A stretch of DNA of 12,158 nucleotides from a virus. The notes under the pieces were generated by a model. It saw only the letters and a program-made list of their open reading frames with translations, did no database searches and was not told where the DNA came from. The stretch lies in the UHGV virus genome UHGV-1877853; one strand, 5' to 3'. Numbering within the stretch: position 1 is the stretch's first letter; every line of letters begins with the position of its first letter. Of the stretch, positions 973 to 4,837 are shown in pieces. The position numbers were made by a program, and so were the translations under genes.

Positions 973-1689
<717 letters not shown>

Positions 1690-1807
1690 CCACAATACAA
1701 CCTTGTTGTCGCAAAAAGATCGCATATGCGATTGTTTATTAGAAATAGAAATCGCCATATAGGCGAATAGTCGATCTCAGTGCATAACATAAGGAAATCA
1801 ATAACAT

Positions 1808-2713
1808 ATGCCAAATTTACCGATGGGCGGATCGCAGGGTGAATTACCCTTAGTACCTACAGTAGAAGTTGTTGCTGATGGCATTCCTATGGGGGTGCTT
1901 AATGATGGAACCCCTTATCTAACTCTTTACGGTTTAGCCAAATTATGTGGCATAGATGAAGCACCTCTTCGAATGTTTACATCTAACTGGGAGACTGAAA
2001 AAAATAAGCCAAGAGGACAAAAAGTAGCTGCATACTTAGCTGAGAAAGGATTTAACAACGTTGACCGACTGTATACCCGCGTCATAAATAGCTCAAACGT
2101 TGAAACACATGCTTATCCTGACTATGTTTGTATGGCTATCCTCCGTTACTACGCTCTAGATGCCACCAATTTTGATAGGTCAGTCGCAATAGGTAATTTT
2201 GTTCGCTTGGCTGAGTACACGCTTAAGCGAATGATTTATGAAAAGTCAAATTACAACCCAAATGCTTCAATAGATATCTCATTCGAGAACTATAGAGCAA
2301 GGATTAAGCTAAACGATCAGATACCGACAACTCATTTTGCAGTATTCAGAGAGATAGCTGACATTGCCATGAACCTGATCGGAGGAGGATTCCCAATGGA
2401 TGACACCACATCTTTGGATGGAAGTGTTGGAATTCACTGGGGAAAGTATTGGACAGCTAATGGCCTATCTGAGAAATTCGGGGAAAGGGTGCAGTACCCA
2501 CATCTATTCCCCGAAAATTACAGGCAGTCAGCTGCAAATAAGCATATAAAAGCTTGGATTTATCCTATTGAGGCACTTGGCGTGTTCAGAAAATGGCTAC
2601 ACGATAATTACGCAATGGAAAAACTGCCAAATTACCTTGGGAACAAAAAGATTAGTAATGCCTCCGAGCTATTAGAGTTGATAAAAAAACCAGCACTCCC
2701 AAATAAGCATTGA
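1808..2713 (+). CDS. Hypothetical 301-aa protein occupying the rexA/rexB slot; possible KilA-N/Bro-N-like N-terminal domain; candidate prophage-encoded exclusion/abortive-infection protein (BstA-like hypothesis)
   Basis: Long ORF on the cI strand with an AAGGAA ribosome-binding site 7-8 nt upstream, followed by an intrinsic terminator. The region is visibly AT-rich compared with flanking lambda-like DNA. The translation does not resemble RexA or RexB as recalled. Confidence 0.8.
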   Translation: MPNLPMGGSQGELPLVPTVEVVADGIPMGVLNDGTPYLTLYGLAKLCGIDEAPLRMFTSNWETEKNKPRGQKVAAYLAEKGFNNVDRLYTRVINSSNVETHAYPDYVCMAILRYYALDATNFDRSVAIGNFVRLAEYTLKRMIYEKSNYNPNASIDISFENYRARIKLNDQIPTTHFAVFREIADIAMNLIGGGFPMDDTTSLDGSVGIHWGKYWTANGLSEKFGERVQYPHLFPENYRQSAANKHIKAWIYPIEALGVFRKWLHDNYAMEKLPNYLGNKKISNASELLELIKKPALPNKH

Positions 2714-2725
2714 TCTCCACCACAA

Positions 2726-2750
2726 CCCGGCATCTGCGCCGGGTTTTCTT
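2726..2750 (+). terminator. Rho-independent terminator ending the cI-cargo transcription unit (tImm-like position)
   Basis: CCCGGC (2726..2731) / GCCGGG (2738..2743) stem with a 6-nt loop, followed by TTTTCTTT. Confidence 0.6.
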
Positions 2751-3003: not shown

Positions 3004-3034
3004 TGCTCTTAAAAATTAAGCCCTGAAGAAGGGC
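3004..3034 (+). promoter_or_regulatory. nutL: nutL (boxA-like TGCTCTTAA 3004..3012; boxB GCCCTGAAGAAGGGC 3020..3034)
   Basis: boxB dyad matches lambda nutL as recalled; boxA differs at its first base from the remembered CGCTCTTAA. Confidence 0.75.
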
Positions 3035-4216: not shown

Positions 4217-4687
4217 ATGACAAAATCACGGAGCGTACCTTTTCCTGAATCAGAAACTGAACATAATGGAATGCCTGTTTTCTGGAGATTCCAAGCGACA
4301 GTTGAAGAAGATGGAATCAAAATATTCGCACTTCAATATATAGCTTTTCATCAGACAGAGCATTATGCATGGTTGGTTCCTGCGCATTGGATTGTTGATT
4401 TTAAACCAGCACCAAATCAGTGGTTACAGGAATGGAAACAAAGGAGAAATAGATATGCAATTAAGAAAGTAGCAAAAAATGCAGAAAGATCTTTTGCATT
4501 CCCAACGAAGAAACTTGCTATTGAAAGTTTATTGCGTCGGAAGAAATACCATTTAATGAGAATAAAACAAGATTTGGCTGTTGTATCAACTCTTGTTGAT
4601 GGGATGAAAAATATTGATACATCAATACCAGATATTGAATATAACTTTGGACACAACCAAGAAACAGAAAATTGGGTATTTTATTAG
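4217..4687 (+). CDS. Hypothetical 156-aa protein
   Basis: ATG 4217 preceded by a GAGGTGAG ribosome-binding site; AT-rich; followed by a hairpin at 4702..4729 and a terminator at 4791..4816. No family recognised. Confidence 0.7.
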   Translation: MTKSRSVPFPESETEHNGMPVFWRFQATVEEDGIKIFALQYIAFHQTEHYAWLVPAHWIVDFKPAPNQWLQEWKQRRNRYAIKKVAKNAERSFAFPTKKLAIESLLRRKKYHLMRIKQDLAVVSTLVDGMKNIDTSIPDIEYNFGHNQETENWVFY

Positions 4688-4790
4688 TACGAATAAGCAC
4701 TGTGTATTCATTCCAACGAGTGAATACACGGAGCAATGTCGCTCGTAACTAAACAGGAGCCGACTTGTTCTGATTATTGGAAATCTTCTT

Positions 4791-4816
4791 TGCCCTCCAG
4801 TGTGAGGGCGATTTTT
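4791..4816 (+). terminator. Rho-independent terminator
   Basis: GCCCTC (4791..4796) / GAGGGC (4803..4808) stem followed by a TTTTTT run. Confidence 0.5.
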
Positions 4817-4837
4817 TATCTATGAGGATATGAATAG

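What the first reader, a model, noticed from the sequence alone, without database searches (positions are those of the whole stretch)
1728..1780. Two related dyad-symmetric sites between cI and the cargo gene
ATCGCATATGCGAT (1730..1743, a perfect 14-bp palindrome) and TCGCCATATAGGCGA (1764..1778, 5-bp arms) share the architecture TCGC(C)-ATAT(A)-G(G)CGA and lie about 34 bp apart, 30-80 bp upstream of the 1808 start codon. Two spaced operator-like dyads suggest a dimeric regulator controls the cargo gene separately from pRM read-through, or they form a transcript-processing structure. I cannot recall whether lambda has the same sequence in its cI-rexA spacer.
Basis: seen in the sequence. Interest (0 to 1): 0.45.

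Follow-up and report, generated by a model that had tools for sequence, protein, structure and literature searches.

The report
Weak hairpin pair upstream of bstA
Two short, related inverted repeats lie in the untranslated gap between a lambda-type repressor gene and the phage-defence gene bstA; they are real but weak and found in one lineage only, so they are most likely minor RNA stem-loops, and the predicted self-immunity element lies immediately beside them rather than in them.

Summary
Both dyads exist, but 11-12 nt left of the stated coordinates: ATCGCATATGCGAT at 1719-1732 and TCGCCATATAGGCGA at 1752-1766, which is -89 to -42 from the ATG at 1808. The cargo gene is bstA, a prophage abortive-infection gene (PADLOC E 2.9e-106). 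The dyads sit in the variable, distal part of the cI-bstA leader. They are identical in every copy of this lineage. They are absent from lambda, BTP1, the tested BstA-Ec locus and the closest relatives. The prophage holds no other copy, and no promoter overlaps them. As hairpins they are weak (-7 kcal/mol against -15 for the nearby terminator). The shared TCGC/GCGA half-sites are 4 bp apart in one dyad and 7 bp in the other, which fits one dimeric regulator poorly. The statistics are modest: P about 0.01-0.03 for the spacer, 0.24 for the whole window. Best reading (about 0.33): minor stem-loops in the pRM cI-bstA transcript. No function is nearly as likely. The notable feature lies next door. 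GATCTCAG (1773) and GATCGCAG (1830) are direct repeats 57 bp apart across the start codon. They are positional homologues of the essential terminal repeats of BTP1's aba element. 46 of 63 non-redundant bstA loci show such a repeat at 56-57 bp.

The parts
976..1689 (+). lambda-type cI repressor gene (237 aa)
   Evidence: ORF list. Pfam HTH_3 plus Peptidase_S24. Annotated as cI / LexA-family in CL707 and E. coli ZH063.
1690..1807 (+). 118-nt cI-bstA intercistronic leader. The distal part (1690-1767) is specific to this lineage. The proximal part (about 1768-1807) is conserved among bstA leaders.
   Evidence: Alignments. An nhmmer profile of other bstA leaders matches only 1764-1810. blastn finds 1690-1900 in only 33 of 5426 E. 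coli genomes, all >=98% identical.
1719..1732 (.). Dyad 1: perfect 14-bp palindrome ATCGCATATGCGAT. As RNA it forms a 5-6 bp stem with an AUAU loop.
   Evidence: RNA hairpin -6.9 kcal/mol on the + strand and -5.4 on the - strand. Flagged as a weak terminator-like site on both strands.
1733..1751 (+). AU-rich linker between the dyads (TGTTTATTAGAAATAGAAA), containing the AGA-AAU-AGA-AAU purine-rich triplets
   Evidence: Read from the sequence. A related TAGAAA..GAAATCG tract occurs in the BTP1 spacer. Its role is inferred only.
1752..1766 (.). Dyad 2: TCGCC-ATATA-GGCGA, with 5-bp arms and a 5-nt centre
   Evidence: RNA hairpin -7.6 kcal/mol (+) and -8.2 (-). Aligns as a 17-nt insertion relative to the CL707-type spacer.
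1773..1780 (+). Left box GATCTCAG, the upstream copy of the direct repeat. It is the positional homologue of the left CCCGCC repeat of BTP1 aba.
   Evidence: It is GATCGCGG in the A2 variant.
1791..1797 (+). AAGGAAA, a Shine-Dalgarno-like block conserved in nearly all bstA leaders
   Evidence: Alignments. Also present inside BTP1 aba.
1808..2713 (+). bstA (301 aa), a prophage abortive-infection defence gene
   Evidence: PADLOC BstA E 2.9e-106. 43% identical to BstA of BTP1. Homologues carry Pfam PF26567 BstA_C.
1830..1837 (+). Right box GATCGCAG inside codons 8-10 (Gly-Ser-Gln), 57 bp downstream of the left box. Exact positional homologue of the right CCCGCC repeat of BTP1 aba.
   Evidence: The protein alignment puts window Q10 opposite BTP1 Q12, together with the sequences.
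1772..1835 (.). Predicted aba-like (anti-BstA) self-immunity element of this bstA variant. Assigned by positional homology only.
   Evidence: BTP1 aba runs from -29 to +34, 63 bp, with essential terminal direct repeats 56 bp apart (PMC8585504). The window repeats are 57 bp apart. 46 of 63 non-redundant loci have such a repeat at 56-57 bp.
1835..1849 (+). Dyad inside the CDS, AGGGT-GAATT-ACCCT, directly after the right box
   Evidence: RNA hairpin -6.1 kcal/mol, z -1.7. CL707-type genes have a different dyad, CTGCAT-CAA-ATGCAG, at the same place.
1662..2130 (+). Recombination module: cI 3' tail, leader with both dyads, aba-like element and the N-terminal third of bstA
   Evidence: 100% identical to the A2 variant (apart from a 4-nt patch) up to about 2130, then about 75% identical. 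The reverse pattern is seen against CL707. The module occurs behind at least three different repressor genes.
2724..2745 (+). tIMM-like intrinsic terminator ending the cI-bstA operon
   Evidence: Terminator scan. Hairpin -15.0 kcal/mol. Annotated as Timm in CL707.

Best explanation
The two dyads are small stem-loops in the untranslated cI-bstA intercistronic leader of the operon transcribed from pRM (and pRE). Any action is at the RNA level. The arrangement is stem-loop 1 (1718-1733, followed by UGUUUAUU), a 19-nt AU-rich single-stranded linker, then stem-loop 2 (1752-1766). Such a cassette could set the cI:bstA expression ratio in three ways: weak attenuation at stem-loop 1; cleavage in the AU-rich linker; or protection of the resulting cI 3' end and bstA 5' end by the flanking hairpins. 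What is shown: the sequences, the hairpin geometry and energies, their position in a leader that is co-transcribed in homologues, and their absence from the conserved part of the leader. What is inferred: that they are transcribed here, that they fold in vivo, and that they affect RNA fate at all. They are not the aba self-immunity element and not an operator of a separate promoter.
For: Both dyads have hairpin geometry with GC arms and AU-only loops. The energies are -6.9 and -7.6 kcal/mol on the + strand, with z -2.7 and -3.6 against shuffles. Dyad 1 has an A-run before it and a U-rich run after it, and the scan flags it as a weak + strand terminator. The spacer lacks a + strand promoter-like site. 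In BTP1, cI-bstA is a single operon with reads across the spacer (PMC7067206), so the dyads should be in mRNA. Unequal half-site spacing (4 versus 7 bp) does not matter for hairpins but counts against a shared dimeric binder. Other cargo leaders at this locus also carry small hairpins. Lambda's cI-rexA spacer has GGGGAA..UCCCC, -9.4 kcal/mol. The widespread 'type C' bstA leader has a hairpin with 17 distinct stems, 81 of 85 cells paired, 11 G.U against 2 A.C, and 0 of 2000 arm shuffles reaching that level. This shows selection for structure on the sense strand in this intercistronic region in other lineages.
Against: The dyads show no variation in any copy, so there is no covariation test. They are absent from the nearest relatives and from experimentally studied bstA loci, so they are dispensable for bstA and aba function. 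The hairpins are weak, about half the tIMM energy. The whole leader folds no better than shuffles (z -1.0 for 1680-1860). In that fold the two dyads cross-pair instead of forming separate hairpins. bstA leaders in general show no thermodynamic signal (mean z -0.2). The perfect palindromy of dyad 1 and the sequence similarity of the two dyads are not needed for hairpins. Whole-window statistics are compatible with chance.
Confidence: 0.33

Rival explanations
1. No specific function. The dyads are chance or neutral features of a lineage-specific, recombination-derived stretch of spacer that hitch-hikes with the bstA N-terminal/aba module.
For: A related dyad pair that includes an arm>=7 palindrome arises in 24% of random 12-kb sequences. 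The window has 78 dyads with arms >=5 and 8 with arms >=7. The dyads are not conserved outside one near-clonal module. The region between repressor and N is a known mosaic hotspot (PMC8585504 discussion). The locus shows sharp recombination breakpoints. Many bstA leaders lack any distal leader.
Against: Within the 118-nt spacer, the combination of a perfect 14-bp palindrome with a second related dyad is unusual (P 0.008-0.03). The spacer holds 3 dyads where about 0.76 are expected. Both dyads have A-rich 5' flanks.
Confidence: 0.3
2. DNA-level extra boxes of an extended self-immunity (aba) element. Both dyads are built from the core of this variant's cognate box (ATCGC). GATCGCA at 1718, GATCTCA at 1773 and GATCGCA at 1830 form three direct boxes in phase (55 and 57 bp). 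[quoted passage not shown] This would strengthen suppression of BstA on replicating prophage DNA.
For: The exact 7-mer GATCGCA occurs at 1718 and 1830, 112 bp apart, which is twice 56. Offset 112 shows a small family-wide excess, 6 loci against 1.9 in swapped controls, including L122 and L123. In type B and type C leaders the left box is often paired with an inverted copy of its own core. The dyads travel with the N-terminal domain/aba module through recombination. The aba of E. coli variants has never been mapped finely (PMC8585504).
Against: In BTP1, 63 bp starting at the left repeat are necessary and sufficient. There is no family-wide excess of extra exact box cores upstream: 1 direct and 4 inverted copies against 4.6 and 3.0 expected. 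Relatives with the same right box (GGATCGCAGGGT: L037, L038, L041, L021) have no ATCGC dyads. The probability of a 7-mer of the right box recurring somewhere in the spacer is about 0.08 (my estimate). Dyad 2 carries only a degenerate core.
Confidence: 0.15
3. Minus-strand tandem terminators or insulators. They would stop antisense transcripts that arise in or beyond bstA from reading into cI and on into cro. Alternatively they would end a short antisense RNA that starts at a promoter-like site overlapping the bstA start.
For: On the - strand both hairpins are followed directly by T-runs (TCGCCTATATGGCGA-TTTCTATTTC and ATCGCATATGCGAT-CTTTTTGCGA), and both are flagged by the terminator scan. A - strand promoter-like site, TTGGCA-17-TATGTT, lies at 1814-1786. 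The - strand hairpin energies are -8.2 and -5.4 kcal/mol.
Against: The stems are short and weak for terminators. The number of promoter-like sites equals the chance expectation, 6 against 4.7. The -10 of the antisense site is damaged in the A2 variant (AACATA to AACCTA). No antisense unit is known at this position in lambda or BTP1. There is no counterpart in other leader types.
Confidence: 0.07
4. One reading: two operators for a dimeric regulator that controls a bstA-specific promoter independently of pRM.
For: There are two related dyads about three helical turns apart (33.5 bp) upstream of the gene. BstA has a putative DNA-binding KilA-N-like domain (PMC8585504).
Against: No + strand promoter-like site lies in 1690-1807. 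BTP1 cI-bstA has a single TSS. The TCGC/GCGA half-sites are 4 bp apart in one dyad and 7 bp in the other. The 39-kb prophage holds no other copy. The dyads are absent from all other bstA loci.
Confidence: 0.05

Closest known systems
BstA-aba abortive-infection/self-immunity system of Salmonella prophage BTP1 (Owen et al. 2021, PMC8585504)
   Same: The cargo gene is a BstA homologue (PADLOC E 2.9e-106; 43% identical to BstA-BTP1). It lies directly downstream of the prophage repressor. A pair of direct repeats straddles the start codon with the same spacing, 57 against 56 bp. The right repeat occupies the exact homologous codons.
   Different: The repeat sequence is GATC(T/G)CAG rather than CCCGCC. 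The dyads themselves lie upstream of the positional aba and have no counterpart in BTP1. The tested E. coli homologue (NCTC10963) has the CL707-type leader, not this one. Function here is untested.
Intercistronic mRNA stem-loops that tune segmental stability or cause partial termination within operons
   Same: Short GC-armed hairpins with AU loops flank an AU-rich single-stranded segment between two co-transcribed genes.
   Different: No RNA ends, processing or covariation have been shown for these dyads. The stems are weak (about -7 kcal/mol), and the resemblance rests on general knowledge rather than a test.
Lambda cI-rexA-rexB immunity operon
   Same: The genomic slot and operon logic are the same: pRM - cI - defence cargo - tIMM - pL/nutL/N. 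The spacer is of similar length, 112 against 118 nt. The motif CTCAGnnCATAACATA is shared just before the cargo gene's ribosome-binding region. Lambda also has a small hairpin upstream of that motif.
   Different: The rest of the spacer is unrelated. Lambda has neither dyad, and its cargo (rexAB) is unrelated to bstA.
Lambdoid operators (OR/OL) and other dimeric-repressor operator pairs
   Same: There are two dyad-symmetric sites a few helical turns apart.
   Different: There is no overlapping promoter. Half-site spacing is unequal. There are no further copies, no conservation and no identified binding protein.

Membership tests
BstA-aba system (locus as a whole) | BstA-family protein | tested here: met
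   PADLOC BstA E 2.9e-106 over residues 8-283. 43% identity to BstA-BTP1 over 299 aa.
BstA-aba system (locus as a whole) | Gene lies directly downstream of the prophage repressor and is co-oriented with it | tested here: met
   cI 976-1689 (+), bstA 1808-2713 (+), then a tIMM-like terminator.
BstA-aba system (locus as a whole) | Short DNA element across the bstA start codon, bounded by direct repeats about 56 bp apart | tested here: met
   GATCTCAG at 1773 and GATCGCAG at 1830, 57 bp apart. The same rule holds in 46 of 63 non-redundant loci, against about 11 in swapped controls.
BstA-aba system (locus as a whole) | The element suppresses the cognate BstA when carried on replicating DNA | not testable with these tools
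   Needs phage or plasmid assays as in PMC8585504.
aba element (the two dyads specifically) | Lie within the region positionally homologous to the 63-bp aba of BTP1 (-29 to +34) | tested here: not met
   The dyads are at -89 to -76 and -56 to -42. The left box starts at -35.
Operator pair of a dimeric regulator | Equivalent half-site spacing in both sites | tested here: not met
   TCGC/GCGA are separated by 4 bp in dyad 1 and by 7 bp in dyad 2.
Operator pair of a dimeric regulator | Overlap with or adjacency to a promoter for the regulated gene | tested here: not met
   No + strand sigma-70-like site in 1690-1807. The homologous BTP1 operon has a single TSS at cI.
Operator pair of a dimeric regulator | Conservation across homologous loci, or further copies in the phage | tested here: not met
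   Absent from all other leader types. No other copy in the prophage.
Operator pair of a dimeric regulator | A specific binding protein | not testable with these tools
   No candidate identified. Needs gel-shift or footprinting experiments.
Intrinsic (Rho-independent) terminator | Stable GC-rich stem followed directly by a U-tract | tested here: inconclusive
   The consensus scan flags dyad 1 on both strands and dyad 2 on the - strand. The hairpins are only -5.4 to -8.2 kcal/mol, against -15.0 for the tIMM-like terminator.
N-utilisation site (boxA/boxB) | boxB hairpin with 5-bp stem and purine-rich pentaloop, preceded by boxA | tested here: not met
   Dyad 2 has the 5+5+5 geometry, but its loop is AUAUA and no boxA (CGCTCTTA) precedes it. 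The true nutL boxB, GCCCTGAAGAAGGGC, is at 3020-3034.
Any Rfam family | Covariance-model match | tested here: not met
   Only chance-level hits (best 16 bits against a gathering score of 82) in 1500-2000.
'Type C' structured bstA leader (seen here) | Sequence homology to the CGGCATTTGCCG palindrome, the ACACAGCGCG motif and the covarying P2 hairpin | tested here: not met
   The nhmmer profile matches the window only at 1764-1810 (E 0.16), which starts near the 3' end of dyad 2.

The most novel reading that the evidence does not exclude
The dyads are additional cognate recognition boxes of an extended, three-box aba element. GATCGCA at 1718, GATCTCA at 1773 and GATCGCA at 1830 would be phased at 55 and 57 bp, with inverted copies of the same ATCGC core forming the dyads. 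BstA, or whatever reads aba, would be titrated by an array rather than a single repeat pair. This would give the first sequence-level handle on how aba DNA is recognised and why specificity is cognate.
Probability: 0.13. Interest if true: 0.6.

Novelty: new member of a known kind. Interest (0 to 1): 0.27.

Why it matters
Taken alone, the dyads matter little. At most they fine-tune expression of a defence gene in one prophage lineage. They matter practically because they abut the predicted self-immunity element of an uncharacterised E. coli bstA variant, common in ST131-type and O111 genomes. Anyone mapping that element needs to know where the conserved aba-like unit (about 1772-1835) ends and the lineage-specific leader begins, and whether the ATCGC-containing dyads contribute. 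The comparative work done to place the dyads also gives a testable general rule for aba. The rule is a direct repeat pair 56-57 bp apart across the start codon, whose sequence tracks the N-terminal coding sequence. Within the literature I could search, that rule is described only for BTP1.

Tried and rejected
- **Lambda comparison:** the cI-rexA spacer is unrelated except for CTCAGnnCATAACATA.
- **Rfam:** nothing for the spacer.
- **Other contexts for the dyads:** exact-pattern scans of viral contigs found only the same bstA context, plus unrelated chance hits in coding-like sequence and one HIP1-like repeat array. blastn of 1690-1780 against phages found nothing.
- **Informative variation:** 33 E. 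coli genomes, viral and metagenome contigs, and three variant proteins in three repressor contexts all carry identical dyads.
- **Recurrent dyads in distal bstA leaders:** other types have isolated 5-bp palindromes at about the chance rate.
- **Family-wide extra box copies upstream of the left box:** none found.
- **Homology of the dyads to the structured type C leader:** none. RNAalifold on the MAFFT alignment of type C leaders predicted no structure because the hairpins were misaligned, so pairs were counted with a script instead.
- **Global folding:** folding of the leader and of 63 leaders gave no general thermodynamic signal.
- **Pairing of the dyad 1 region with the start-codon region** (74% complementary over 23 nt): not pursued. 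It rests on the shared CATATG and has no comparative support.
- **boxB/nut, host transcription-factor sites recalled from memory, and Dam/SeqA clustering:** considered and set aside. BTP1 aba has no GATC.

Full report
**1. The observation**

Both sequences exist, but not at the stated coordinates.
- ATCGCATATGCGAT is at 1719-1732.
- TCGCCATATAGGCGA is at 1752-1766.

Their centres are 33.5 bp apart. They lie at -89 to -76 and -56 to -42 from the ATG at 1808.

Dyad 1 is a perfect 14-bp palindrome. Dyad 2 has 5-bp arms around a 5-nt centre.

**2. Chance**

The figures below come from random sequences of matched composition.

| Test | Result |
|---|---|
| A 118-nt spacer holds a palindrome with arms >=7 | 4-6% of cases |
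| A 118-nt spacer holds two separate dyads sharing a 4-mer arm core | 0.8-3% of cases |
| A 12-kb window holds such a related pair including an arm>=7 dyad | 71 of 300 sequences |

The real window has 8 palindromes with arms >=7 and 78 with arms >=5. The pair is therefore unusual for its spacer but not compelling once the size of the search is counted.

**3. Context**

The layout is that of the lambda immunity region read leftward:
- cro (675-875, - strand) and lambda-type OR;
- cI (976-1689);
- a 118-nt spacer;
- a 301-aa gene (1808-2713);
- a tIMM-like terminator (2724-2745);
- lambda-type OL/pL, nutL and N.

The cargo gene replaces rexAB and is bstA. PADLOC gives E 2.9e-106, and the protein is 43% identical to BstA of Salmonella prophage BTP1. 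In E. coli ZH063 the prophage combines P22-like virion genes with this immunity region.

[quoted passage not shown] Its own prophage escapes it through aba, a DNA element (PMC8585504):
- In BTP1, aba is 63 bp long and spans -29 to +34 around the bstA start codon.
- It is bounded by direct CCCGCC repeats that are essential for its function.

For the E. coli homologue, the element was only located to 'the locus with its upstream sequence'. That E. coli locus (NCTC10963) has the CL707-type leader, as the primer sequence GTCCGCAGCAAGAGACTTTATACG shows. It is not the leader seen in this window.

**4. Where the dyads sit relative to aba**

The protein alignment puts window Gln10 opposite BTP1 Gln12. 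By that alignment, the right CCCGCC repeat of BTP1 corresponds exactly to GATCGC at 1830-1835. A near-copy, GATCTC(AG), lies 57 bp upstream at 1773. The BTP1 repeats are 56 bp apart.

I tested this as a family rule on 63 non-redundant bstA loci from viral, genome and metagenome contigs.
- A direct 7-mer repeat (<=1 mismatch) links the first 45 nt of the gene to the upstream region at offset 57 in 34 loci and at offset 56 in 12 loci. Swapped upstream/gene pairs give 8.8 and 2.5.
- At least 9 of 12 matching positions occur in 30% of loci at offsets 55-58, against 3.9% at other offsets.
- The box sequence differs completely between variants: CCCGCC, GATCGCAG, GATCCCTAC, GGGCACCAC, GGTCACCAGC, GAACAGCT, GCAGCACCCC.

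The predicted aba-like element of this window is therefore about 1772-1835. Both dyads lie upstream of it, and dyad 2 ends 6 nt before the left box.

**5. Conservation of the dyads**

The stretch 1690-1900 occurs in 33 of 5426 complete E. coli genomes, all >=98% identical, with no weaker relatives. Every copy examined has identical dyads. These copies include the A2 variant, which sits behind two other repressor genes.

The dyads are absent from:
- lambda;
- BTP1;
- the CL707/NCTC10963 type;
- the closest relative of the N-terminal sequence, L037;
- about 60 other leader variants.

A profile of the commonest other leader type matches the window only from 1764 to 1810. So the conserved proximal leader begins near the 3' end of dyad 2. 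Exact-pattern scans of viral contigs found the dyads in no other meaningful context. The 39-kb prophage has no further copy.

The dyads belong to a recombination module, 1662 to about 2130. It comprises the cI tail, the leader, the aba-like element and the N-terminal third of bstA. It is found joined to two different C-terminal parts and at least three repressor genes.

**6. What they could do**

*Operator of a separate promoter.* The evidence is against this reading.
- There is no + strand promoter-like site in the spacer.
- BTP1 cI-bstA is one operon with a single TSS (PMC7067206).
- Half-site spacing is unequal.
- The dyads are not conserved, and the phage holds no other copy.

*RNA stem-loops.* Both dyads fold as 5-6 bp hairpins with AU loops.

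| Element | + strand (kcal/mol) | - strand (kcal/mol) |
|---|---|---|
| Dyad 1 | -6.9 | -5.4 |
| Dyad 2 | -7.6 | -8.2 |
| tIMM-like terminator | -15.0 | not folded |

Dyad 1 has an A-run before it and a U-rich run after it. The two dyads bracket a 19-nt AU-rich linker. This is the anatomy of an intercistronic attenuation or processing cassette, but a weak one. The 181-nt leader as a whole folds no better than shuffles, and there the two dyads cross-pair.

Some indirect support comes from other leaders at this locus.
- Lambda's rexA leader has a small hairpin before the shared CTCAGnnCATAACATA motif.
- The widespread 'type C' bstA leader has a hairpin with strong covariation specific to the + strand: 17 distinct stems, 81 of 85 cells paired, 11 G.U against 2 A.C, and 0 of 2000 shuffles reaching that level.

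Against this, bstA leaders in general carry no thermodynamic signal.

*Extra aba boxes.* The dyads are built from the core of this variant's box (ATCGC).
- In favour: GATCGCA recurs exactly at 1718 and 1830, with GATCTCA between, in phase at 55 and 57 bp. Offset 112 shows a small family-wide excess, 6 loci against 1.9.
- Against: there is no family-wide excess of extra box cores. Relatives with the same right box lack such dyads. In BTP1, 63 bp suffice.

*Minus-strand terminators.* Both hairpins are followed by T-runs on the - strand. No antisense unit is evident, and the only promoter-like site is damaged in the A2 variant.

*No function.* This remains nearly as likely as any of the above.

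**7. Verdict**

The dyads are real but were placed 11-12 nt too far right. They are lineage-specific and weak, and they lie in the variable distal part of the cI-bstA leader.

| Reading | Probability |
|---|---|
| Minor RNA-level stem-loops in the pRM operon transcript | about 0.33 |
| No function | about 0.30 |
| Extra cognate aba boxes | about 0.15 |
| Minus-strand terminators | about 0.07 |
| Operator with its own promoter | about 0.05 |

The finding itself is of low interest. The neighbouring aba-like repeat pair and the family-wide 56-57 bp rule are the more useful outcome.

Noticed in passing
window 1773-1780 and 1830-1837; loci L001-L170: Family-wide rule. In 46 of 63 non-redundant bstA loci, a short box upstream of the ATG is a direct near-copy of a box in codons about 6-12, at a spacing of exactly 56-57 bp. 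The box sequence differs completely between variants. This extends the essential terminal direct repeats of BTP1 aba to the whole family. I found it described only for BTP1 in the searchable literature.
   Followed up: yes
L022, L023, L030, L033, L038, L069, L071-L073, L076, L107, L109, L112, L117, L122, L123, L133, L144, L149, L154 (about -125 to -1 from the bstA ATG): A different, widespread 'type C' bstA leader is conserved and structured. It holds a CGGCAT(T/A)TGCCG palindrome after the repressor stop, an ACACAGCGCG motif, and a two-tier hairpin with loop C-N-AGA that shows strong covariation specific to the + strand (81 of 85 cells paired; 11 G.U against 2 A.C; 0 of 2000 shuffles). A CAGGG motif follows, then a second covarying hairpin that carries the left aba-like box. 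It is not in Rfam.
   Followed up: partly
L109 395-431: Weak Rfam hit to the gut-2 RNA motif (RF02990): 24.3 bits against a gathering score of 39.8, E 0.1. It covers the box-bearing hairpin GACC-GAUCGG-GGUC-AAAA of a type C leader. Seven other type C loci scanned in the same call (L094, L095, L102, L107, L110, L111, L114) gave no hit.
   Followed up: partly
window 1777, 1779, 1781, 1788: The A2 variant (for example CP159877, and P0114 on more than 800 contigs) is 100% identical over about 470 nt except for four clustered substitutions in and just after the left box (GATCTCAGTGCATAACA to GATCGCGGCGCATAACC). The window matches lambda's rexA leader at three of the four positions. A2 matches the L037-type leader. 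This suggests a gene-conversion patch in the predicted aba.
   Followed up: partly
window about 2090-2140: Sharp mosaic breakpoint inside bstA near codon 100-110. The window equals A2 upstream of it and equals CL707 downstream of it. So the leader/aba/N-terminal domain and the C-terminal domain reassort as separate modules.
   Followed up: yes
L002 3001-3029; L036 1442-1473: A remnant of the lambda-type cI 3' end (..QWPEETFG*) is kept, untranslated, between a different repressor gene and bstA in CP159877-type prophages and in BTP1. This indicates that bstA modules move by recombination within the repressor's 3' end.
   Followed up: partly
window 1835-1849: A dyad, AGGGT-GAATT-ACCCT, lies in the coding sequence directly after the right box. 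CL707-type genes have a different dyad, CTGCAT-CAA-ATGCAG, at the same position.
   Followed up: no
window 1718-1721, 1773-1776, 1830-1833: All three GATC(G/T)CA boxes contain a Dam site (GATC). Most enterobacterial variants keep GATC in both boxes. This is intriguing because aba acts only on replicating or high-copy DNA, but BTP1 aba has no GATC.
   Followed up: no
L001 1455-1481 (CL707 type): The left box ..GATCCCTAC is paired with an inverted copy of its core, GTAGG, 17 nt upstream (-5.0 kcal/mol, z -3.5). This resembles the box-bearing hairpin of type C leaders.
   Followed up: no
L011 (IMGVR_UViG_2713896897_000006), codon 9 of bstA: One viral contig has a nonsense mutation, TCG to TAG, inside the right box (GGATAGCAG). 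bstA is inactivated there while the leader and both dyads are intact.
   Followed up: no
window 4585-4812: A denser cluster of related dyads built on TTGAT/ATCAA (ATCAACTCTTGTTGAT, TATTGATACATCAATA, TCAATACCAGATATTGA, ATATTGAATAT) lies at the 3' end of ORF 4217-4687. A 9-bp-stem hairpin, GTGTATTCA..TGAATACAC, follows at about 4702-4729, then a terminator-like CCCTC..GAGGG-TTTTTT at about 4794-4817.
   Followed up: no
window 1740-1751; L036 1474-1491: A purine-rich tract, TAGAAATAGAAAT (AGA-AAU-AGA-AAU), lies between the dyads. It resembles TAGAAAGACGAAAT in the BTP1 spacer and GGAAATAAAAAAGAAG in the CL707 type, at a similar distance from the left box.
   Followed up: no
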